This document shows positions 5,950-48,612 of a stretch of DNA of 64,000 bases, in pieces (positions within the stretch are counted from its first letter, which is position 1; every line of letters starts with the position of its first letter). A program made the position numbers and the translations under genes. Origin of the DNA: the human T2T-CHM13v2.0 reference genome, Homo sapiens; the NCBI RefSeq assembly GCF_009914755.1, contig NC_060928.1; one strand, written 5' to 3'. The notes beneath the pieces were generated by a model. That model was given only the letters and a program-made list of their open reading frames with translations, made no database searches and was not told the DNA's origin.

Positions 5950-7780
<1,831 letters not shown>

Positions 7781-27839: not shown

Positions 27840-28285
27840 GGATGTAGAGTCTGAATTTGGCTTTTTTGCCTTCAAATTCTGGCCTTGCCACTAATATCCA
27901 TACCAACCTCAGAGAATTGTTTTAAAGGTTAAATGTGAATTTAACTTGCCAAAAAAGTAAGAATTTTACATATAAATAGAAAATGTATGTAAATTATTTA
28001 TACATATATCTATTACACATAGTAATATAGTAATATATTTTATAAATATGTAAAAATGTGTGTATGTATATGTATATGTATAGACACAGACTCACATTTT
28101 CTGTGTGTGTGTTTGTGTGTGTGTATGTGTATGTATCTATCTCTTTCTTTCACTTACTGCTCCACAACTGGAATGCAGAGGTTAGCTCTGTGAGTGCTAT
28201 TTTCATCTGTTCAGTTCACTCCTGAATTCATACCAACTAGAGCAGTGCCTGGCATTGAGTAAATATTTGATGAATCAATGAAGTT
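27840..28285 (+). mobile_element. MIR remnant, TA/TG low-complexity tract and L2 3' end (donor of two duplicated pieces)
   Basis: acctcagagaattgttttaaaggttaaatgtga (MIR); tcagttcactcctgaattcataccaactagagcagtgcctggcattgagtaaatatttgatgaatcaatgaa (L2 terminus). Confidence 0.6.
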
Positions 28286-29194
28286 TCTCTACTTTTTAAA
28301 CTTTCCATTTTAGGATTAGAAAATGTACCTTGAACATTCATATTTATCATGTATTCCAGTTTTTTTGTAATTGATGAATTGAATGTCATTTTTATTTTAT
28401 TTTGCATTTTGGAGATCTTATATATGTGATTGCTTTACAAAGTTTGATTTAAAGCAAAAATTAATTTAACTTTTAATTTTTAATTAAAGCAATCTAGTAC
28501 TCAAACTCAAAACAATTCCATCTAATTCTCAAGACCTAGAGTGAGTTGCAATAATTTCTGGTGCATTGCTTTTTATGTCGCTTTCGAACGATATGGAACT
28601 ATAAAGTAATGAAGCTATGAACATATATTTGCCGGCATTTATTTTTATCCAAAATAAATTACACTTTTTGTCTTTCCTTAGTGCTTTGCTCCTAAATAAT
28701 CACATTGCTCAAAACAATATTTCTAGTAGCTCCTTTTAAAAGATCCCTTTTAGATCAAGTTTCTTAATTACAAAAGAAATTCAGTCGTATTACTTTTTAC
28801 TGATAGAACAGTATCATTTGATATAATACCTTTTCCTGCCCTTCTTGCAGTTTTCTTTTCTATTTTCTTCACCCTCCTGCTCGCCTTTTTCTTTCTGGTG
28901 TTTTCCCTCACACCTGGTTGCCTTCTCATTAGCAGGCTAAGTGGCTCTATGTAAGCCTGTCCTTGGTTGGAGCTGTCTGCTGACTCTCAAGTGTCATAAG
29001 TGGCTGTAATTGAGAAAGGCATTGAGATGTTGAATAGCCAAAGTGTAAATGGAAGACTCTCTGTCCTTACCTATAAAAAGAAAAAGAATCTATAAAGGTA
29101 GCTATACAAAGAAATTGAAAGACACATATAATAGTGTACTTTTGTTTTTGGTCTCAATTTATGTGCAGCCAATACAGACAGTTTCCAATAAACA

Positions 29195-29198
<4 letters not shown>

Positions 29199-29230
<32 letters not shown>
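29199..29230. repeat. (TG)n microsatellite
   Basis: Pure TG run seen directly. Confidence 0.95.
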
Positions 29231-29233
<3 letters not shown>

Positions 29234-31020
29234 AATTAAGAAATGGAAATGATTTGTTTACCCAGTCAGCATTTCATGGCGCGGTTAGGTGTTTGGTTCC
29301 TTAGAGAGGGGTGATACAGATTGAAGAAGCCACAGTCTCTGTTCTCTAGCAATTCATATTGTAGTGTAGCTTTCAACAAAATAGAGAAATGTACAAAGAG
29401 GTATAGGAGTGTCAGGGAAGATAAGATTGGTTTTATCTGTGGTGGAGTGGGTTTGGTAGTATCAGGGAGAACTTTGTGAAATTAGTCATGCTTGGATGTC
29501 AGAATGTATTTCCCAGATGGGAGGGAAAAAAATAAAAGATCTTAAAGGTGATGGTATTGTAGGTAAACCTGTAGAGAACAACCCATGATTGTTTAGATAT
29601 GTAGAACATTTGAAGATGAGATACGCCAGTTCTTCAAAAACCAGGGAAAAAAGTGACAGCCAATAATTATTGAGAGAGCATGCTAGAATGATCATCCAGT
29701 GAAATTTAAGCAGTTGATTAAAAATTTGTTTTTCCTGCCCAAGCAGTCAAGTGTGGCATTCAAGTATGAACTTGAATTGTTCTTGTGGTACAAAAACCTC
29801 ACTAATTGGGCAAATAGAAGTGGACACTCACTCCAAAAGATACAGTGAGTTTCATTGCTTTAATATTTTTTAAGTTCCTGAACAAAATATAACGCTTTTA
29901 TTAGTGAATAGCTTTCACTAATTTGTTTTCATTTTATATCATAGTATATCTTATTTTAATCAATAGTGATTTGGTAAAGTAGAGCTCAACTTTAATTTTA
30001 TGCTATTGACTTTCTGCCCTGTATCTCATTCTTTATCCATTTGGGGGCAAAATTCTAGAATAGATAATGGATTTTGTCACTGTTTAGCATGTATGTAGTT
30101 ACTTAACCTCCTGATTGCATACTAACACTAATAGCATAAATAAATACTAAATATAATAATAATTAACTAATACAAAGAGCTTTGTGTAAAGCTCTTTGTG
30201 TAGTCACAAACTAGTAACTAAAACTAAAGAGCTTTGTGTAAAGCTCTTTAAATAGACATACTAGAACATTCAAAAATTGATATGGCCAGTTGCAAAACCA
30301 TTAGAAAATATTAAATATCTAAAGAAAATACTTTGAACGATAATACTATTTTCTGGGTGTAAAAAGTCTGTTTTATTATTTGTTTAATAAAATTAAAAAA
30401 TTATGGTAATTTAAAGAAAATAAAAACTCAAATGCCTCTATAAATCTTTCATTTAAATAAACTTACATTTCTGTTTATTTCTTTCTATTTTTTAAATCCA
30501 AATTTATTTAGATTATTGTGAATAAATAGATTACAGTATTTGTGTCTGTATACATAAATAAGGGTGTGTGTATGTATATGTGTATGATTAGATGTGCTAA
30601 GGTGCTTCTCAATTTGTTTTCTATGCCTGTTACCTAATGGCAAAAGTGGTAAGACTAATCAATCCCAGTATCTTAGCTTGAAGAGCCTGTGGCAAGAAAT
30701 AGGGACATTTCTTGGAAATAGCAAAATTTATATTAAAAACTGTTATAGTCTTTTAATTAGGAAAAGAAATCTGTAGCTACCAAATCCATCAATTTTCCCA
30801 GTAAACATTATAATAAATTAGATAGTCTAGGAAGATGTGTCATCTGCATCCTAAATTTCCTCTACATACCATAGTTCTGCTGTGAGACCTCAGGCATTGT
30901 GGGAAATAATAGACTTGACAACCAACAGGAAATATTCAAAGCATTCTACAACTGTAACCATAAAACAGAATATTTAATTTTTCTCATAATCAAATTAAAT
31001 ATTTTTTTCTTTTTTTTCAG

Positions 31021-31086
31021 AAATGTTTAATTTGGTAAATTGGAGGAAAAAAACATGGATTTTTAGCAATTGAAGAGCAAATTAAG
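31021..31086 (+). other. ADGRL3: 66-nt non-coding (5'UTR) exon, probably exon 2 of latrophilin-3
   Basis: Strong acceptor atttttttcttttttttcag ending at 31020 and donor aag/GTAATT at 31087; stops in all three frames. Gene assignment rests on my recollection that this sequence precedes gtttcagatttgggatattgg in the LPHN3 5'UTR; needs BLAT. The exon call is firmer than the gene name. Confidence 0.72.
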
Positions 31087-32327
31087 GTAATTAGTAGATT
31101 ATTATTGCCAACCATATAATTTCAAAATTTATTTAAAAATATTTACATTCAAGTTAATATATTATTTTGAGTCTTTATCATATTGAAACATCAGCATATT
31201 TGTAATGTGTTACTAAAATGGAATTTTACATATTTTTGGAAAATAAATTGCCATTTCTTGTTATACATTTTCCAAAAATCATATTTCTTGTGAACAAATT
31301 ATAAGTGATCTAATTAAAAATATTGCTGTTGTGAGGAAATATACTCCAGTTATATGAAAAATAAATGAGCTAAAAATAAGAGTTTTAGTAGGTCTTCACC
31401 TTTTCAGAAAGGCACGTATGTTTTATTACTTTCTTAACTAATGTAGAATAACCATATTGAGTTTTTTTCAGTTGCTACATGTACACTAACACAATGTGTT
31501 AAAGTCATTTTTCTTTAATTCATTCAGTTTTCAATTACATAATTCATAATGTTGAATATAAATATTAGGTAATAAAATATATTCTTTTGGTAGCAACACG
31601 ATGTTTAATATTAAGCAAATTACTTTAAAAATTATGTTATTTATCAGAAATATGTTTATGAAGTCCAGCATTTCAAGCAGTGTAACTTTAAGTCAATATC
31701 CATATTTACATCTTCCCCAGAAAATCATAGAAGGCAAAACAGGCCCACATATTAATCAATCAACAGTTCAATGAGAATTTCCTCTTTTCTTGAAGTTACT
31801 GAAAGTAATTCCTGTAAAGTTACTTTGTAAAGTTTAGCATGTACATTATTATAAATACAGAGCCTAATATTTGAAATATCAACTTTCTTATTGTTCTTCA
31901 TATTAAAATGATTTAAGTTCATTTCATTTTGAATTATTGACATAATTGATATGTACTTTAATTGCTATCATCTATTTTCAAATATTCCGTACTTTTTTCT
32001 GAGCTTTAGGAGTAAAGAGTGACTTAAAACTATAAAAATATTGCACTTGCCTTTCTGTGCACTACGTTTTCCAGTTGATGTTTTGTCTTTTAAATATTTT
32101 TGCTTAATTTCTTTGTCATTGTTTTCTTCCCCCTATTTATTTCTACATGCAAGCAATGTTGTTCCTGTTTTACAGAAGAGATATGATTGAATCTCTTTCA
32201 TTTGGAATTTCTTGTCAGTGTTTTCTTCTTCACACTCAGTCACATTTGCAAACAATTAATATTATTTCCTTCTTTCAGAATAGATGTGATTGACTCTTTC
32301 ATTTATATTTATTAGCTTATTTATATA

Positions 32328-32436
32328 TTATAAAATATACTACTATATTACTATGTGTAATAGATATATGTATAAATAATTTACATACATTTTCTATTTA
32401 TATGTAAAATTCTTACTTTTTTGGCAAGTTAAATTC
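32328..32436 (-). repeat. Inverted copy of 27937-28045 (piece A)
   Basis: Reverse complement matches 108/109; single mismatch at 32340/28033. Confidence 0.97.
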
Positions 32437-32643
32437 CTCAAATCCACTGGTAATATTTATATTCATTTCTATAATTACTACATTGGTTTCTTCAATATAA
32501 AATTAACCCTTCTAGATATATTAACCATGCAAATAACATAGGCAAAATCTTTTTATTTAACGGAAGTTTAAAAACTCAACTGAATCTTTCTCTTTTCTAC
32601 TTTTTTTTAATCAGCACTCCAGTAGAAGCTAATAAACTCTCAG
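32432..32643 (-). repeat. Inverted copy of 47982-48189 (piece C)
   Basis: Reverse complement aligns over ~208 bp with about 8 substitutions and one 4-bp indel. Confidence 0.96.
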
Positions 32644-32980
32644 CCCTAAAGAAATGAAGTAACGATTCATGTTACAACAAGGGTGAAACTTGCAAACATT
32701 ATACTAACTGAAAAAGACACACACAAAAGGCCAAACATATGATTCTATTTATATGGTAGACCCTCAGTGATAGTATGTTAGTGGTTGCCAGAGGGTGGGG
32801 CAAGAGTGGAATGAAAAGTAACTGCTAACGGATACAAGGTTTCCTTTTGGGGAAATAAAAATATTCTGAAAGTAGAGAGCAGTGATAGCTGCACAACTTA
32901 GTGAATATAGTTTAAAAAACAGTGAATTGTATACTTTGAAATGGTAAATTTATGGTATATGAATTATATCTCAATTAAAA
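32641..32980 (+). mobile_element. L1MB-type 3' end fragment
   Basis: cagccctaaagaaatgaagt...ttagtggttgccagaggg...aattgtatactttgaaatgg...tatgaattatatctcaat. Confidence 0.8.
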
Positions 32981-33720
32981 TATTAGAAAACAAACCTGCC
33001 AAACATTTAACGGGGCAACAATCCCTATGATTTCTCCATAAACTTCATATTTGGGACCTGTGGCAGTCATTAAATTAAACATTATTTAGCCGTAATGCTT
33101 TCTGATTTTTCATAAAGAAAGTAAATATGAGGAGATGTTCTGAAATTTTATTCCAACATCCCCCTGAATACTTTTGAACACTCCGGGGGCCTCTAGAATA
33201 GAAAATTAAGCTTTTGTAAGGCAAACATGATACTTCACAGACTGTTCCAAGCCAACTTCGCCTGACTCCTCTCCTAACATTGTCTCACCACATATGTAAT
33301 CCTGCAGCCACAGTGGAAACAGCAATCCTTCAATGGCCACCCCTTGCTCTTTCACAAACTAGTGTGTGGGCCTGGAATGTATAACCTCACCTTCCCTGTC
33401 ACAACAACTCCTCCGTGAATTTCACAGCTTCTCTGAAGGTTTCAGCGCCTCCAGCAGAAGTGAACTGCTCCCACCTTTCTTTCTTCAGCAGTCTGTCAGG
33501 AACTCTCAAAATGTGCACAATAGTATCTGCAGTACTTCATCTTTCTCACTAGTTTTTAATATGTCCACAGCAAACATATCTAAGTTTGTTTGGATTAATT
33601 TTTGTAAAAAGGATGATTGCCTGAGCATGTTTTGTATATTGATTTATTTCACCAACATTAAGTACCAAATAAACTATTATATATTCAACTTTGTAAAAGA
33701 ATGGCTGCCAAATTTAGTTG

Positions 33721-33921
33721 TTTTATAAATATGTAAAAATGTGTGTATGTATATGCATATGTATAGACACAGACTCACATTTTCTGTGTGTGTGTTTGTG
33801 TGTGTGTATGTGTATGTATCTATCTCTTTCTTTCACTTACTGCTCCACAACTGGAATGCAGAGGTTAGCTCTGTGAGTGCTATTTTCATCTGTTCAGTTT
33901 ACTCCTGAATTCATACCAACT
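33721..33921 (+). repeat. Direct copy of 28038-28238 (piece B)
   Basis: 199/201 identity, including identical TG-tract lengths. Confidence 0.97.
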
Positions 33922-34889
33922 GGGATTTTGATGGTGGTGGTTGTTTGAAAGGGTATTTTACTGTACTCGTGTTGCATGTATTTGGTTAAGTGTATTTATG
34001 GAATTACTATCATTTTTAACTAAATGAGTCCTCACATCTAGAAAATCGCTTTTATGTAGCCCTAACGTCAAAATTGGAAAAATGAAGATTATTTTACTAA
34101 TACATGACCAAGGCAACATTAAGAAAATGGCAGCTGATATTTCCCCTAATTCTATTATAGGTTATTTTTCAGTTTCATTATATAACATAAACACTACTCA
34201 GATTTATTAAGGAGCTAGCCAAAAACTTAAAATAATCAAGAAGACTATGAAATATGGATTTGACTCTTAAATTCTAAGTGATTAAACTTGTCCTAAGAAT
34301 ATATTTTGTTTTGAGGTATAAGTTAATGATAGTACACAGCAAAATAAATAGTAAGATTTGTAATAAATTAACATCTAGAACATACATGTAAAACCTCTGG
34401 TTTTGTTCAGCAGGGTTTATACTCATGGTCAATCTAGCAATTTACAAATTTTTACTAAACTTTGTGATAAATCTTTAGAAGCCTTATTGGAGATTTCTTG
34501 CAGGGAAGGAATAAAGTCATTAGAGAAAGTGTAGCTCTTTCTGCTGTGGTAAAAATGGCTGAAATCACATGAGAAAAATATGGCAACAAATAAAAATGTA
34601 TTACTTTATCAGCAAATATTTTTAGAAGATGACATAGAAAACACTGCCTTAATCAGAAAAAATAAGTATTAGAATGGATTATATAATATGAGAAATTCAG
34701 TCTTCATTTGGACAAAATGTATGTATTTCCAATATGTGTCAATTTATATTTGCTAGATTGTATTTTTTAAAGGCTGGTTTATTGATATCTATTTTATATA
34801 TAATGAATTCAGTCCGTGCAACATATGAATGTGTTTTGACAAGCACATAAAGTTGTGAAAATATCACCAAAATCAAGATCTAGAACGTA

Positions 34890-35956
34890 TATAGGGGGAC
34901 CTGCCCCAATAATCACGTAGGTTCTTTTCTATTTTTCCTAAGCGTTGGCCGCCTTGAGAAATAAAGGGACAGAGTACAAAAGAGAGAAATTCTAAAGCTG
35001 GGCATCTGGGGGAGACATCACACGTTGGTAGGACCCGTGATACCCTACAAGCCACAAAAACCAGCAAGTTTTTATTAGGGATTTTCAAAAGGGAAGGGAG
35101 TGTGCGAAGAGGTGTGGGTGACAGACATCAAGTACTTAACAGGGTAATAGAATATCACAAGGCAAGTGGAGGCAGGGCAAGATCACAGGACCACAGGACC
35201 GAGGTGAAGTTAAAATTGCTAATGAAGTTTTGGGCACCATTGTCATTGATAACATCTTATCAGGAGACGAGGTTTTGAGATCAACCGGTCTGACTAAAAT
35301 TTATTAAGTGGGAATTTCCTCTTCATAATAAACCTGGGATCACTATGGGAGACTGGAGTTTATTTCATCTCTGCAGCCTCGACCATAAGAGACGACCACG
35401 CCCCAGGGGGACCAGTTTAGAGACCCACCCCCAGGTGCACATTCTCTTTCTCAGGGATGTTCCATGCTGAGAAAAAGAATTCAGCGATATTTCTCCCATT
35501 TGCTTTTGAAAGAGAAATACAGCTCTGTTCCGCCTGGCTCACCGGTGGTCAGAGTTTAAGTTATCTCTCTTATTCCCTGAGCAATTGCTGTTATCCTGTT
35601 CTTTTTTCAAAGTGCCCAGATTTCATATTGTTTAAACACACATGCTGTACAATTTGTGCAGTTAATGCAATTATTACAGGGTTCTGAGGCAATATACATC
35701 CTCCTCAGCTGACAGGATTAAGAGATTAAAGTAAAGACAGGCATAGGAAATCACAAGGGTATTGATTGGGGAAGTGGTAAGTGTCCATGAAATCTTCACA
35801 ACTTATGTTTAGAGATTGCAGTAAAGACAGGCATAAGAAATTATGAAAGTATTAATTTGGGGAACTAACAAATGTCCATAAAATCTTCACAATCCATGTT
35901 CTTCTGCCATGGTTTCAGCGGGTCCCTCCATTTGGGGTCCCTGACTTCCCACAACA
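34890..35956 (-). mobile_element. MER11 (HERV-K11/HML-8) solo LTR, probably MER11C
   Basis: Minus strand starts tgttgtgggaagtcagggacccc; 1067 bp; perfect 6-bp TSD aacgta at 34884-34889 and 35957-35962. Confidence 0.9.
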
Positions 35957-38629: not shown

Positions 38630-39520
38630 AACCTGTAGAGAATTGTGTAATTTTTACCACAATTAGGATACAAAACAGTTTTATCACCTAAAAATTCCCT
38701 AGTGCTGCTTCTGTGTAGTCAAACTCTGCCTCTGCCCCTAACTCCCCGGCAGCCACTGGCCTGTTCTCCATTCCTATGTATCGTACAATGTGTAGCCTTT
38801 TGTGATTGACTTCTTTTTCTCAGCATAATGCCTTTGAGGTTCATCCCTGTTGTTGAGTGCCCCAATAATTCATTCCTTTTTAAATTGCTGATTAATATTT
38901 TATTGTATAGATGTATCTCAGTTCATTTATCTACCTATTGAAAAACACTTGAGTTATTTCTAATTTGTAATGATAATAAAGATTGTGTTAGTTCATTGGT
39001 ACGCCTATAAAATACTGCTAGTACAAGGCAATTTATAAACAGAAAAGGGTTTATTGTGGCTCATAGTTCTCCAGGCTGCACAGGAAGCATGGCCCCGGCA
39101 TCTGTTCCTGCTGGGGGCCTCAGGGAATTTACTGTCATGGCAGAAGGCAAAGAGGGCCCAGTGTAGCTCATGGCCAGAGAGAAAGCAAGAGACACAGGTG
39201 GGGGTGGTGCCACACTCTTTTAAAAAAACAGATCTCACGTGAACTCAGAGTGAGAACTCACTCCTTACCTCAAGAAGGGTACCAAGCCATTCATGAGGGA
39301 TTCACCTCCATGACCCAATCACCTCATACCAGGCTACACCTCTGGCATTAGGGATTACATTTCAACATGATGTTTGGAGGGGACAAACATCCAAACCACA
39401 TCAAAGTTGTTATGAACATTCATTTGCAATGTGTGTGAGTCTGCATGTATGTGCGTAAGTTTTCATCACTCTAGGTTAAATACCCAAGTGTGGGATTGCT
39501 GGTCATATAGTAAGTCTATC
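38630..39520 (-). mobile_element. L1M 3' fragment split by an MST LTR
   Basis: ccctaactccccggcagccactggcctgttctcc; cagcataatgcctttgaggttcatcc; resumes atacccaagtgtgggattgctggtcata. Confidence 0.7.
38984..39403 (-). mobile_element. MaLR solo LTR, MSTB-like
   Basis: TG...CA, 420 bp, ggctcatagttctccaggctg, tttcaacatgatgtttggaggggacaaacatccaaacc; TSD aagat/aagtt. Confidence 0.85.
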
Positions 39521-39678: not shown

Positions 39679-40067
<389 letters not shown>

Positions 40068-40301
40068 AAAATGCTACTTTTATGATATTTTCCTTCCATG
40101 ATATTTTTGTCTTTTCTTTATGAGTTTTGTCTTGTTTCCTATCGTAGATGATGCCAAAACAATTGACCATAGAAATAAGGTTTAACTGTTTTCGGTACTG
40201 GATGGATATTCAGCTGTTTTATTCTAATTAAAGCTCACGTCAAGTGCCCTTCAGAATTTACACGCATAAATGGTTTTCTTTTTACATAGAAAAGAGTCTC
40301 A

Positions 40302-40658
<357 letters not shown>

Positions 40659-43297: not shown

Positions 43298-43937
43298 GCA
43301 CATTGTGCTAATGCTAATTGATAAACAAAGAATAATGAATTAATGGAGTCTTCACCAAACTAACCAGGGTGTTTTGTTGTTATGAGACCATAATTTATTC
43401 ACAAAACTTATACAGATAATTTCTATTAACTTTGCTTTACTGTATTATGTTATTTCAGGTGCTTTCTCAGCTGGCTTATTTTCTAGCTGCAGTTAAAACA
43501 TACTCACTATTATATGTTAATTTTACATGACAAATATAATAAAAACATGAAGGTTTTAATAGGTAATGACCTATTCTGAATTTGTTCAGTAAAATATAAC
43601 AAATTAAAGCTTTCATTGAAAAAAATAGCCAATTATAACCCATTTGAAAGAGACCAGAAAATGATAATATATCAGAAAATGATAAGATATCTGAAAATGT
43701 TTTAACTGGCATGGACTTCAATAAAATACAAGGGAACAAATTTAATATAAAACAATTTGGAAAATTTTGATATGGAGGGGAATAGCTGAACTGTTAATGT
43801 AGAAGGAGGAACGCACAGATTTGTTATCCCACCTGTTGAGAGCGCATTGTGCTAATGCTAATTGACAAACAAGGAATAATGAATGAATGGAGTCTCCACC
43901 AAACTAACCAGGTTGTTTTGTTGTTATGAGACCATAA
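43298..43937 (+). repeat. 96-bp interspersed direct duplication (43298-43393 and 43842-43937)
   Basis: 90/96 identity, no indels. Confidence 0.95.
43655..43700. repeat. 18-bp tandem repeat, ~2.5 copies
   Basis: cagaaaatgataatatat cagaaaatgataagatat ctgaaaatg. Confidence 0.9.
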
Positions 43938-46900
43938 GTTGGGAAAACCACATCTGAATTGAGATCATATTCAAATTGCGTTTACTATAGCCTGTTTTAG
44001 CTAAGGAGGGAAAGGATTTATTTGTAAATTGCTACCTACAGTGTGCTTTTCACCCAAATGCTTGACAGATTTCCCGTACATACATGTCATCTAGTACAAC
44101 ATCCTTTTAGCTTTAGATGTAGCAGAAAGTGAACTTTTAACAAAGTTTAAAATTAATGAAAAACCATTAGATTTTTCTCATTATTTATATTTATGTTTAA
44201 TATATTTAGAATGCAAACTAAGTTATAATGTTGGCCCATTTCTGTCATTACTGATGATAAAGTTTTTAAATTTAAAAAAGAAATTATTTACCTTTGTTGA
44301 TAATGCCATAAATCAGACCAAATTGAGTATTTAAAAAAAAAACTTTTATAGGAATATACATATCAAATTACATAATCACATTTGTGATGTTAATCAGTAA
44401 GGAGAGATTCTTACTTGGTTTACATTGGCTGAATGATTGCCAACTTGATTCAGTCGAACTGAGGTGTTTGGCATTATTTCATTTTAAGGACTTTGACCTC
44501 TAACAACATATTTTACAGTGTAGGTCAAAATGATGAGTAACCAACACAATTTTGACTTTCCCAATCACTACCTTTTCTGTTGCATCAAAGCTTATATCAT
44601 CCAGGAGGGAAATCTTTGTCATTATTATTAATGCATAAAGTAGTAACTATAAATTTACTATAAATCTACTTTTTTTTCCAGCAAATGGATTCATTTATAA
44701 TTCAATGCTAATAACATGTATTTTCATAGTACTTTGGCCTTTTTGAAACTTCTCACATGTAAATGCATATTCAAGTTAACTTCACTGAGTGTCTATTATG
44801 TTCCAGGCAATATGAAACATGCTTTCATGTAATTTACTAAATAATTTGTTAGCCTAGTAAGGAATATATTATTATTATTATTATTATTCCTGCTGAATGA
44901 GACTTTGGTTCAGGAAAATAAAGGTTTATATTTTATTAGTTTTCTAATATGATAAGTATATATTTATACTATAAAATAATACAAAACAATAACAATAGTG
45001 CAGTTTCTAGGACTTCAATATTTTAGCAAATATCATCAAATTTTATGACATTATTTATAATTGTTACCAAATTATATAAAGTTATGTCTTTTAAACCACA
45101 AACTTTTTTTCTTGCAGATTAACATTGCCTCTTTTTCCTGTTGTTAAAACCTTTTCACTTTTTCTCCTCACAAACTTTTTAAATTGCAAATGAATTTCAC
45201 AATCATTCTAGGAAGTAATCCATTTACAGAAAAAGAAATTAAGGAACAAGACAGATGTGACTGAAGCTGAGTCACGCTCCATTTGTGTTCTATCCAGCCT
45301 TAAACACAAATAGTCAAAAAGAAATGAGGCAAGTGTGGGGATGTGGGGTGGGAAATATGAAAGCACATGACCTTCTGTGGTCCTGCTTTTTCAGATTCCT
45401 TCAGGACCCACTTTATTGCCTAGAGAGTTATGAGTTGAAAGCATCTCTTTTAGCTCTCAATTCCTGGTTTGCTCTGTTGTTTATTTCCTCACTTACTTTT
45501 CCACCACATAGCCAGAATACCAGTATTCCTAAGATTCTGGGTGAGAACAATTCTGTGCTTCAGTTTTCTAATTGCTTCATATGAATACCTCTACCAGGAA
45601 GATTTGAGAACCCATAGTATTAGCTAATTTCCTATAAAAAAAATTGTCAGTATTAACTGGCCTTTTCAGGCTGCAAAGGGTATGTTGAACCTCTTATCAC
45701 TAAGAATCATTTCTCCAAAGACAGATTTTAAACTTTAAATGAAAATCTCTATTTCTCTGTCTTTTACTCCCAAGATCACTGGAATGTATAGCTGTTGAAA
45801 ATATAATGGGTAAATAATAAAGTGGTCATTGGAGAGCTATCCATGCTGTAATTTGAACAGGCAAGTAAATCTGGACAGATGCTCTGTTGAAATTTCTGGA
45901 GGGAGCCATTCTTCATATTATTGTAGATGTCTTTATCACACTCACTAGGCTAGACTCTGAGTGATGAAATAATAAAGCGATATTGGTTTTGATGTGTTTT
46001 ACTTTACCTTGTGAACAAAATCATTGAACAATGTCTCACTGAAACTGCAATCCTGAAAGTGTTAATGTTCTTTGTGATATGTTCAAGAATTAAGAATAAG
46101 AAATAGTTGAAAGAAATATGATTAAAGAGTATTTTACTAGAAAGCAGATTTTGAAACTTTAAAAAGAAAAAAATGATGATTTTTACTTTGAATTTGGGTG
46201 AATTGAAAAAAAAATCAATTTTAGTAGACCCTTCATTAAATATCATGGAGTGAGAATGATGAGCCTTCGTAAATGTATTGACAATAAATGACACCACATT
46301 CCAACCTGAAGATTGATTATTCTTTTTTCACTGAGATCAGTTATCTTTTTTTTTTCTTATGTCTATTAATATTTAAGACCTGGCAAGAATTTTGTATTTA
46401 AAATCTTCAGCCAGACCTGATTAGCAAGTTTAATTCATGTTGGTCCTATCTAGCAAACTTAACCTGATGTATTACTTGGTAAAGTAATTACTTCTTTTTT
46501 GCCTTTCCTGTCTTCCCTAGGTTTTGCTGACCATTCCATCCTTTTGGCTTCTTCTCTTTTTTTATCCTCCCACTTCACTTATGGAACCTCTGGTTTACAA
46601 TGTCTTTCACTCTCTCTCTTCTCTCTCTCTCTCTGTCTCTCAATATATTTTACTCCCTTGCCATAGTCTTGAAATAAGAACTGATATATTCAAAGGATCT
46701 TTCAAAATCTAATATCTAATCTGATGTAAGAACATGTAAATAAAGGAATCTTAATTTTTATCTTCCTCTTTCCTCTCCTCTTGTCTTTTATGTGTACTTT
46801 TTCTCCTTCCAAAACTGTGTTTCCTTAACTTCCCACAACCCCCACCAAAACACACACATATATGTGCTTTTTCTTCCATCATTCTGTCTAACTGCAAAGA

Positions 46901-48612
46901 AAAGAATAACTTACTCTTGGGTTACTTGAATTTATTCATATATTCTAATTAGAAATTAAAGTCCTGAATGGACCATTTATAGGACAGGACAATCCTTTAC
47001 TTGTAAGTAGAAAGCATATGGAAATGGAAATTGTTGATGGAATCAGACGTTACTAAAATTATTATTTATTCTGCTGTCAAAATGATGTTTGAAGTAAAAA
47101 TTTTTTATGTCAGTTAATACTCAGATCTTTAGTTAAGGATGTATAATATTTAAATGAAATATGTAAAATGCTCAGGAATGGAGATGATTTTAAAATATCT
47201 TTTACAGTAGGAATTAATATTAATTAGTAAAGTGCACTGCTTATTAATTTAGCCATAACTTTGAAAGTTTACGTTAAGATACATCTTAAAAACAAAATAT
47301 TTTCAGTGTGAAATAAAATTTGAAATGACAATTTATATCAGACAATGATATATAACAAAATTATTAAAACAATCCCAATTTCATCTTTTTAGGTTCATTT
47401 CATTAATTTTCAAGTTCTGTTTTACAAATGGCATGTGTGCATATTCAAGGTAATTAGGTTTGTAAATAAAAGTAGAAGATGTCAACAAATAGTAAGAGAA
47501 ATGTCACTCTTCCATAGTGAATAATTTAAAAATGTTAAATCAACATCTAAAACTGCTAGTACTGGTTCTACTGCAAAGATACCCCTTAAGCTTCATGGAC
47601 CTCAATTTCTACTCTAAAAATTGAGAGTGTTGGACTTAATGACTAAATTATCCACTGAACTCTAAATGTTTAATATTTAAAATCTTCCCTCTTGCTCTAT
47701 AAACTTAACCTGCTTTCTTTGGGATTTTAGGAATGAGAAGGAATGTCATTTGTATTTGCTCTTATAGATGTTAAGGTAGACAAGAAACTCAGTTGGAATG
47801 ACAGAGTATAATTTCTACATTTAAAATGTTGTGTTGACTAATGCAATTAATTTGTACTCAGTTATAAGTAGAGGCGATGAGTACCAAGGCATATGATCAG
47901 TGCAAGTATACCCCTGAGACAATATAATTTTCAGGGAATCAAAATAATCAGCAAGAGAGCATATATTTCCTTAATGGAGTACTGAGAGTTTATTAGCTTC
48001 TACTGGAGTGCTGATTAAGAAAAAGGAGAAAAGAGGTTCAGTTGAGTTTTTAAACTGCAGTTAAATAAAAAGATTTTGCCTATGTTATTTGCATGGTTAA
48101 TGTATCTAGAAGGGTTAATTTTATATTGAAGAAACAAGTGTAGTAATTATAGAAATGAATATAAATATTACCAGTGGATTTGAGGAATTAAAATGTCACA
48201 GTTTCATTTATTACTTTACTATATCAGACCTGTGTTAAAAAGTTTTGCTCCAGTTGAACAAACGAGTAAAATAAATATAGGAAAAAATACCCCAAAAACT
48301 TTTACGGTATATAAAAAGAAGAAAAGCGATGTACTTTTTATTTTCTAGAGGTGATGAAAAGTGAACTAGAAATAATTCCTCTGTTAAACCAGGCATCTTG
48401 TAAAAGAGAACCATCACTATATATTGTTCCTGGGATTCCCTGTGAATAACTGGCAATGTGAGGCTATAGTAGTCACAGCTCTTTATTCCTTCCAAACCAG
48501 TTATTGTGCTGCTAATTAGAATTGGATATTGGTGGTAGTGGAAATGGGGAAAACTATCAATGTTACTTTGTGTTAAATTTTAATCACACAAGTTAGGACA
48601 TTCAGAATTATG

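What the first reader, a model, noticed from the sequence alone, without database searches (positions are those of the whole stretch)
32328..33921. Mosaic of three locally templated fragments that reconstructs a head-to-tail junction of a 20-kb segment
Seen: piece A (32328-32436) is the reverse complement of 27937-28045 (108/109). Piece C (32432-32643) is the reverse complement of 47982-48189 (~95%). Piece B (33721-33921) is a direct copy of 28038-28238 (199/201). A and C share exactly 5 bp (GAATT at 27937-27941 and 48185-48189). A and B are adjacent in the donor and overlap by ttttataa. Flipping 32328-33720 yields the contiguous order C-A-B, i.e. 48189 joined to 27937. Direction: the donor MIR and L2 run through the ends of A and B at 27.9-28.3 kb but are cut in the copies, and both ends of C coincide with junctions at 32 kb, so 32-34 kb is the recipient. 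No poly-A or TSD. Inference: a multi-jump template-switch event (FoSTeS/MMBIR or polymerase-theta type), the scar of a collapsed tandem duplication, or a captured junction of a 20,253-bp circle containing the exon.
Basis: partly seen in the sequence, partly recalled or inferred. Interest (0 to 1): 0.85.

Follow-up and report, generated by a model that had tools for sequence, protein, structure and literature searches.

The report
Locally copied DNA patchwork in ADGRL3 intron
Three short unique stretches of an ADGRL3 intron were copied and pasted a few kilobases away, leaving an old and probably harmless scar of the kind made when DNA copying or repair jumps between nearby templates.

Summary
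32328-32436 (A') is the reverse complement of 27937-28045 (108/109). 32432-32643 (C') is the reverse complement of 47982-48189 (7 substitutions in 204 ungapped columns plus a 4-nt length difference). 33721-33921 (B') is a direct copy of 28038-28238 (199/201). In the whole 3.1-Gb assembly these pieces have only these local copies.

A'|C' share AATTC (chance about 0.009). C' abuts a cut L1-like repeat with an inferred 4-nt overlap (TCAG). There is no target-site duplication and no poly-A. An old repeat runs through the end of B at 28 kb but stops at the end of B', so 28 kb is the source.

Best reading (0.6): a germline scar of repeated microhomology-associated template switching (MMBIR/FoSTeS-like), probably one event, with loss of the L1 5' part.

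The "head-to-tail junction of a 20,253-bp segment" appears only after a hypothetical 1.39-kb flip, which still leaves an 8-nt duplication. A collapsed tandem duplication is disfavoured. A circle is neither needed nor excluded.

Age, fixation and the original orientation of 32644-33720 could not be tested, because no primate or other human assemblies were available. This is a known kind of event at a locus I found undescribed; interest is modest.

The parts
27937..28045 (+). Donor A (15.6% G+C), source of the inverted copy A'
   Evidence: 108/109 to the reverse complement of 32328-32436. Only local copies in the assembly.
28038..28238 (+). Donor B. It overlaps A by TTTTATAA and covers -42 to +159 of the annotated alternative first exon 28080-29844.
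   Evidence: 199/201 to 33721-33921. The exon is not preceded by AG and is followed by GTGAGT (exon coordinates come from the annotation supplied with the finding).
28199..28285 (+). Old interspersed repeat (like the L2/MIR 3' end; name recalled) that runs through the right end of B in the donor
   Evidence: 78% to a copy on contig 11; right of 28238 the donor keeps 33/48 identity to that copy, while the recipient right of 33921 has 14/43.
47982..48189 (+). Donor C, source of the inverted copy C'
   Evidence: 2 of 2 candidates in the assembly are itself and C'.
32328..32436 (-). A', inverted copy of 27937-28045
   Evidence: one transition at 32340.
32432..32436 (.). AATTC shared by the end of A' and the start of C' (junction microhomology)
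   Evidence: The chance of 5 nt or more at random pairs of positions in 27-49.5 kb is 0.009.
32432..32643 (-). C', inverted copy of 47982-48189
   Evidence: 7 substitutions in 204 columns (4 transversions; two pairs 2 nt apart), plus a patch of 8 versus 4 nt at 32585-32592.
32644..33720 (+). X, a single-copy segment kept between C' and B'. Its left third (about 32640/32648-32994) is the 3' part of an old L1-like repeat, cut at the C' junction.
   Evidence: 38 rows elsewhere in the assembly, all within 32638-32994, at 69-78% identity; other copies continue at least 50 nt further 5', and 3 of 5 have TCAG where C' ends; 32995-33720 is unique.
33721..33921 (+). B', direct copy of 28038-28238
   Evidence: two transitions, at 33756 and 33900.

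Best explanation
The 1,594 bases at 32328-33921 are a mutational scar. They are not a functional element and not a mobile element.

During germline replication or break repair, a growing DNA end left its template several times. It primed at short matches on exposed DNA within 4-16 kb and copied a short stretch each time.

Read on the bottom strand, the path is:
1. Synthesis coming from 33922 jumped to 28238 and copied 201 nt down to 28038 (B').
2. It returned home and copied 33720 down to 32644 (X). It stopped inside an L1-like repeat.
3. It jumped, at a TCAG match, to 47982 on the other strand and copied up to 48189 (C').
4. It jumped, at AATTC, to 27937 and copied up to 28045 (A').
5. It returned to 32327 and went on.

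The 5' part of the L1, and whatever lay between it and 32327, was lost.

What is shown:
- The copies and their uniqueness.
- The 5-nt overlap at A'|C'.
- The absence of target-site duplication and poly-A.
- 28 kb as the source of B'.

What is inferred:
- That there was one event.
- The order and direction of the jumps.
- The TCAG overlap.
- The deletion.

Both visits to the 28-kb donor end (or, read the other way, begin) at the same 8 nt. These lie in a very A+T-rich stretch, which points to a nick, a break or an unwound site there.
For: - Three pieces at E 1e-50 to 1e-98, in both orientations, with the donors kept.
- Only local copies in 3.1 Gb.
- AATTC at A'|C', chance 0.009.
- The L1-like repeat in X is cut exactly where C' ends. 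Its homology reaches back over TCAG, which is also the end of donor C.
- An old repeat passes the end of B in the donor only.
- No target-site duplication, no poly-A.
- Pieces of 109, 212 and 201 nt taken from 4.3, 15.4 and 5.7 kb away. Passages of PMC5120786 name microhomology over 4 bp together with templated insertions of hundreds of bp as the signature of iterative FoSTeS/MMBIR template switches.
- In C', 4 of 7 substitutions are transversions and form two pairs 2 nt apart (P = 0.05). This fits error-prone copying near junctions, as cited in passages of PMC7702065.
- A+T-rich surroundings fit what PMC7954356 reports for short-range switches (passages only).
Against: - No outgroup or second human assembly was available. 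The single event, the direction for A and C, the deletion and the original orientation of X are therefore untested.
- A+B differ from their donors at 3/310 positions and C at 7/204 plus an indel (Fisher p = 0.057), which hints at two ages.
- Five junctions in one event is many.
- Microhomology can be read at only two of the five junctions. The second is inferred from other L1 copies (3 of 5 have TCAG).
- DNA folds at six breakpoints are no better than shuffles (z from -0.7 to +0.5), so there is no support for a hairpin barrier.
- The L1 could simply have been 5'-truncated when it inserted.
Confidence: 0.6

Rival explanations
1. Two steps. First, a 525-nt chimeric fragment C-A-B was inserted between the then inverted X and 33922; this was a template-switch insertion with two donor stretches. 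Later, a 1.39-kb inversion of X-C-A took place. Its right break was an 8-nt staggered cut in the copied TTTTATAA, and fill-in left one copy of the 8 nt at each end of the inverted segment in opposite orientation.
For: - Flipping 32328-33720 gives C-A-B in donor order.
- The 8 nt TTTTATAA sit at 33721-33728, and their complement TTATAAAA at 32328-32335. A filled-in staggered break predicts exactly this.
- The number of junctions, five, is the same as in the one-step path.
Against: - It needs two independent rare events within 1.6 kb, with one break falling inside a 302-nt insert.
- There is no matching inverted duplication at the other break (32327 against 33720).
- The 8-nt overlap is equally expected if two switches used the same exposed site.
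Confidence: 0.15
2. Two events of different age. C' was copied from 48 kb next to the cut L1 earlier. Much later, a second event added A' and B' from 28 kb. Its left break fell inside C' and removed the rest of C'.
For: - C' differs from C at 7/204 positions plus a 4-nt indel, whereas A'+B' differ at 3/310.
- All 3 differences in A/B are transitions, against 4 of 7 transversions in C.
Against: - The difference is not significant (Fisher p = 0.057). It shrinks further if the two paired substitutions count as single events.
- It requires the second event to break within the roughly 0.2-kb older insert.
- AATTC is the exact end of homology to both donors.
Confidence: 0.1
3. Cut and paste without copying. 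Short fragments released by closely spaced breaks on a sister chromatid or homologue (for example meiotic double cuts) were ligated by end joining into breaks at 32.3 and 33.7 kb. The damaged donor chromatid was not inherited.
For: Passages of bioRxiv 10.1101/2020.06.23.168138 report, in mouse germlines, ectopic inserts of 15-349 bp and local inverted inserts of 16-709 bp. One breakpoint of the inverted inserts has a median microhomology of 5 bp. The same process also gave tandem duplications and circles. The piece sizes here (109-212 nt) fit.
Against: - Adjacent fragments from one cut should overlap by about 2 nt (overhang length recalled), not 8.
- No match to the recalled 13-mer PRDM9 motif lies near any breakpoint. 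The single match in the window is at 6265. This is weak evidence, since hotspots turn over.
- The donors are very A+T-rich.
Confidence: 0.07
4. The C-to-A junction is a relic of a real 20,253-bp head-to-tail join of 27937-48189. The join was either a circle closed at AATTC, from which a junction fragment was captured at 33.7 kb, or a tandem duplication that later collapsed.
For: The join 48189 to 27937 with a 5-nt overlap has the geometry of a circle or tandem-duplication junction. Circles and tandem duplications from germline breaks are reported.
Against: - The junction fragment is not contiguous. A' and B' face opposite ways, 1.29 kb apart, and a flip leaves an extra 8 nt.
- A collapse needs two deletions of about 14 and 5.4 kb with exactly complementary ends.
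- No other duplicated sequence is left in 27-49.5 kb.
- A backward jump is an ordinary step in a template-switch chain.
Confidence: 0.05
5. Assembly artefact or a variant private to this genome.
For: Only one assembly could be examined.
Against: The pieces differ from their donors by substitutions and an indel, as real diverged copies do. The flanks are unique and simple. That this assembly is considered complete and accurate is recalled, not tested.
Confidence: 0.02

Closest known systems
FoSTeS/MMBIR complex rearrangements with templated insertions (iterative template switching; chromoanasynthesis on a small scale)
   Same: - Several short stretches copied from nearby, in both orientations, with the donors kept.
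- Microhomology over 4 nt at a junction.
- No target-site duplication or poly-A.
- Substitutions near the junctions.

Criteria are as given in passages of PMC5120786 and PMC7702065.
   Different: - Here it is an old scar in a reference assembly, not a de novo patient variant.
- No large copy-number change.
- All within 20 kb.
- Single-event origin not shown.
Short-range template switches in great ape genomes (four-point model; PMC7954356, passages read)
   Same: An inverted copy of nearby sequence placed in A+T-rich DNA and fixed in evolution. It is read as a transient switch to another template and back.
   Different: - Those events act within tens to hundreds of nucleotides of one fork and involve one excursion.
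- Here the donors lie 4-16 kb away, the pieces are 109-212 nt, and there are at least three excursions.
Inversions with duplicated flanks or templated insertions at their breakpoints (PMC7702065; the paired-duplication inversion class is recalled)
   Same: If X was inverted, it is a small inversion with templated DNA at both breakpoints and an 8-nt inverted duplication.
   Different: - The inserted DNA does not come from the inversion's own flanks.
- The layout does not fit the pattern of a duplication on each side of the inverted segment (worked through by hand).
- Inversion of X is not shown.
Insertion of meiotic double-cut fragments (bioRxiv 10.1101/2020.06.23.168138)
   Same: Germline; insert sizes; local inverted inserts with about 5-nt microhomology at one end; the same process can give circles and tandem duplications.
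   Different: The 8-nt overlap between neighbouring fragments and the lack of hotspot marks do not fit. That study was mostly in ATM-deficient mice.

Membership tests
FoSTeS/MMBIR-type templated-insertion rearrangement | Two or more inserted stretches copied from elsewhere nearby, with the donors retained | tested here: met
   Three pieces with donors intact at 27937-28238 and 47982-48189.
FoSTeS/MMBIR-type templated-insertion rearrangement | Microhomology at junctions | tested here: inconclusive
   - 5 nt at A'|C' (chance 0.009).
- 4 nt at C'|X, inferred from other L1-like copies, 3 of 5 with TCAG.
- The other three junctions cannot be read without the ancestral sequence.
FoSTeS/MMBIR-type templated-insertion rearrangement | All junctions formed in one event | not testable with these tools
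   It needs outgroup or population assemblies. The divergence of A+B against C differs only weakly (p = 0.057).
FoSTeS/MMBIR-type templated-insertion rearrangement | Excess point changes close to junctions | tested here: inconclusive
   Two pairs of substitutions 2 nt apart in C' (P = 0.05). Which copy changed cannot be told.
Retrotransposition (L1-mediated insertion or processed copy) | Poly-A tail and target-site duplication | tested here: not met
   No shared 5-mer in the 25-nt flanks of the block or of A'C' or B', and no A run of 8 or more.
Genome-wide interspersed repeat | Many copies elsewhere in the genome | tested here: not met
   For A, B and C there are only local copies. The search skips very common words, so this is a lower bound. 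Only 32638-32994 inside X is multicopy.
Collapsed tandem duplication of 27937-48189 | Remains of a second copy beyond the junction | tested here: not met
   No other duplicated sequence of 88% identity or more involving 27-49.5 kb, apart from an unrelated 99-nt pair at 43.3/43.8 kb and a 32-nt match.
Captured junction of an extrachromosomal circle | One contiguous fragment spanning the closure point | tested here: not met
   C' and A' are contiguous, but B' is 1.29 kb away in the other orientation. A flip leaves TTTTATAA twice.
Captured junction of an extrachromosomal circle | Independent evidence that the circle existed | not testable with these tools
   No circle or haplotype data were at hand.
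Short-range template switch (four-point model) | Donor within tens to hundreds of nucleotides; a single excursion | tested here: not met
   Donors lie 4.3, 5.7 and 15.4 kb away, with three excursions. The definition is from PMC7954356.
Meiotic double-cut fragment insertion | Donors and recipient at recombination hotspots | tested here: inconclusive
   The recalled 13-mer motif has 1 match in the window, at 6265, and none near a breakpoint. Past hotspots are unknown.

The most novel reading that the evidence does not exclude
The C-to-A join (48189 to 27937, closed at AATTC) is the fossil closure point of a real germline 20,253-bp circle or head-to-tail duplication. That segment carried the ADGRL3 5' exon at 31021-31086 and the alternative first exon at 28080. 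A junction-spanning fragment was used to patch a break inside the chromosomal copy and was then partly inverted.
Probability: 0.06. Interest if true: 0.55.

Novelty: new member of a known kind. Interest (0 to 1): 0.28.

Why it matters
This is a clean, fully resolved fossil of a multi-step copy-and-paste repair event in unique sequence, with every piece traceable to a donor within 20 kb. Such cases are useful as teaching examples, as tests for structural-variant callers, and as rare-event markers for primate phylogeny.

Locally, it duplicates 42 nt upstream and 159 nt downstream of an annotated alternative ADGRL3 start exon. The copy lies about 1 kb upstream of an annotated enhancer (34879-35817; both from the supplied annotation). 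A regulatory effect is therefore conceivable, but nothing here shows one.

It does not open a new question about mechanism.

Tried and rejected
- **Outgroups.** No primate or second human assembly is reachable with these tools. A scan of prokaryote genome contigs for the A'|C' junction, in case of stray human DNA, found 0.
- **Split old repeat across the insertion sites, to prove insertion and the orientation of X.**
  - The flanks 31500-32327 and 32995-33720 gave only themselves.
  - 33922-34800 gave 8 weak hits, all starting 299 nt or more from the junction.
  - Probing the window with four L1-like loci and their flanks found no missing 5' L1 part next to any breakpoint. The other L1-like fragment, at 38731-38985, overlaps X's part of the element, so it is not its other half.
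- **Repeat running through the left end of A.** No hit crossing 27937.
- **Hairpin or cruciform barrier at breakpoints.** Six DNA folds gave z from -0.7 to +0.5.
- **Further small templated pieces at the junctions.** Only 11-12-nt matches at chance level.
- **Splice-derived (circular RNA or lariat) template for the C-to-A join.** 27937 is preceded by GT, not AG, and 48189 is followed by AA, not GT (read). Rejected.
- **Transposase-type origin of the 8-nt duplication.** Considered from memory only; not tested.
- **Papers on this locus.** Full-text searches with ADGRL3 plus structural-variant, inversion, human-specific and great-ape terms listed nothing about it (listings only).

Full report
**Observation.** A repeat search of 27000-49500, a BLAST of 31500-35000 against the window and flanked pairwise alignments confirm the three pieces.
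- A': 32328-32436 is the reverse complement of 27937-28045 with one mismatch (108/109; a transition at 32340).
- B': 33721-33921 equals 28038-28238 with two transitions (199/201).
- C': 32432-32643 is the reverse complement of 47982-48189. It has 7 substitutions in 204 ungapped columns and an 8-nt versus 4-nt T/C-rich patch. BLAST gives 93.95% over 215 columns, because it adds three flanking nucleotides and the gap.

A self-BLAST of the whole window gives 35 non-self HSPs. Only 6 reach 88% identity, and the three pieces are the strongest (E 1e-50 to 1e-98).

**Are the pieces genome-wide repeats?** No, as far as the search can see.
- A search of the own 3.1-Gb assembly with 32300-33950 returned 42 rows: the query itself, the three donors, and 38 rows elsewhere. 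All 38 fall within query 339-695 (32638-32994) at 69-78% identity (40 of 2,203 first-look candidates were scored).
- Donor C with 400-nt flanks returned 2 of 2 candidates, itself and C'.
- Donor A/B with flanks returned itself and the two copies. It also returned short hits in the TA- and TG-rich stretch, and one 78% hit on contig 11 covering 28199-28285 (40 of 105 scored).
- That search skips very common words, so these are lower bounds.

**Junctions.**
- 32327|32328 lies in TA-rich sequence, and its position is uncertain by a few nucleotides.
- A' and C' share AATTC (32432-36). At random pairs of positions in 27-49.5 kb, an overlap of 5 nt or more has probability 0.009.
- C' ends at 32643.
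- The multicopy element in X is, by its sequence, the end of an L1 (name recalled). Aligned with five other copies, its homology starts at TCAGCC (32640-45), whereas the other copies continue at least 50 nt further 5'. Three of the five have TCAG at that place. TCAG is also the last four bases of the C homology. The join of C' to X therefore looks like a 4-nt microhomology junction inside a formerly longer L1. This is an inference, because the L1 could have been truncated there when it first inserted.
- 33720|33721 and 33921|33922 cannot be judged without the ancestral sequence.
- There is no shared 5-mer in 25-nt flanks and no A run of 8 or more, so retrotransposition is out.

**Direction.** The contig-11 copy of an old repeat (like the L2/MIR 3' end; name recalled) aligns across the right end of B.
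- Right of 28238 the donor keeps 33/48 identities to it. Right of 33921 the recipient has 14/43.
- Left of the breakpoint both have about 36/57.

So 28 kb is the source and B' is the truncated copy. For A and C the direction rests on parsimony: A and B are contiguous only at 28 kb, and both ends of C' are junctions.

**One event or two?** A+B differ at 3/310 positions and C at 7/204 plus an indel (Fisher p = 0.057). Four of the seven C substitutions are transversions and form two pairs 2 nt apart (P = 0.05 by permutation). None of the pieces holds a CpG.
- This is compatible with one event of about 1.9% pooled divergence (10/514). Extra errors may have arisen during copying of C', as reported for replicative rearrangements (passages of PMC7702065).
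- An older C' cannot be excluded.

**Mechanism.** The features here are copy gain with the donors kept, several pieces of 109-212 nt from 4-16 kb away in both orientations, microhomology over 4 nt, and no transposition marks. Passages of PMC5120786 name this combination as the signature of iterative template switching (FoSTeS/MMBIR).

The path needs five junctions whichever way X originally lay. Both copies taken from 28 kb end (or start) at the same 8 nt, TTTTATAA, in a stretch of 15.6% G+C. This suggests a nick, a break or unwound DNA there.
- A hairpin barrier is not supported: six folds gave z from -0.7 to +0.5.
- A+T-rich context is also what PMC7954356 reports around short-range switches.

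**The 20-kb head-to-tail reading.**
- Flipping 32328-33720 does give C-A-B, but with TTTTATAA twice.
- A collapsed tandem duplication would need two deletions whose ends are exactly complementary. No other duplicated sequence remains.
- A circle is possible but adds steps: closure, capture of a 525-nt junction fragment, and inversion.
- Germline breaks can give inserts of this size, tandem duplications and circles by end joining (bioRxiv 10.1101/2020.06.23.168138, passages). However, the 8-nt overlap and the lack of a hotspot motif near the breakpoints do not favour that route.

**What remains open.** Age, fixation, the original orientation of X and the presumed deletion all need primate and human assemblies, and none was available. 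Full-text searches listed no paper on this locus (listings only). Supplementary tables of ape structural-variant studies were not examined and may list it.

**Verdict.** This is a real, well-resolved scar of a known kind, at a locus I found undescribed, with no evidence of function.

Noticed in passing
window 43298-43396 and 43842-43940: A 99-nt direct repeat, 93% identical, 544 nt apart. The 801-nt stretch holding both has no other match in the assembly. It is a second small local duplication in the same intron.
   Followed up: partly
window 6097-6211 and 7148-7261: Direct repeat of about 115 nt, 88.7% identical, about 1 kb apart. Its genome-wide copy number was not checked.
   Followed up: no
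window 32106-32203 and 32206-32304: A roughly 100-nt tandem pair at about 70% identity, lying directly left of the A' junction.
   Followed up: no
window 32308-32318: The 11-mer TTTATTAGCTT, 10 nt left of A', is identical to donor C at 47989-47999 (and so the complement of 32626-32636 in C'). About a dozen 11-12-nt matches were found for this flank, so it may be chance. Its place close to the end of C is curious.
   Followed up: partly
window 28080-29844: The annotated exon of other ADGRL3 transcripts is not preceded by AG and is followed by GTGAGT, so it reads as an alternative first exon. B and B' carry -42 to +159 of it, without the splice donor.
   Followed up: partly
window 27928-27945: A 7-bp stem with a 4-nt loop (GTTAAAT GTGA ATTTAAC). 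The left end of donor A (27937) lies in the loop. The fold is no better than shuffles.
   Followed up: yes
window 38731-38985 and 39403-39508: Another fragment of the same old L1-like family on the minus strand. It overlaps the part present at 32648-32802, so it is not the missing half.
   Followed up: yes
window 39753-40070 and 40305-40611: Two copies of a short interspersed repeat with poly-T/poly-A ends in inverted orientation, about 240-760 nt apart and 81-98% complementary over parts. They look like an inverted Alu pair (name recalled).
   Followed up: no
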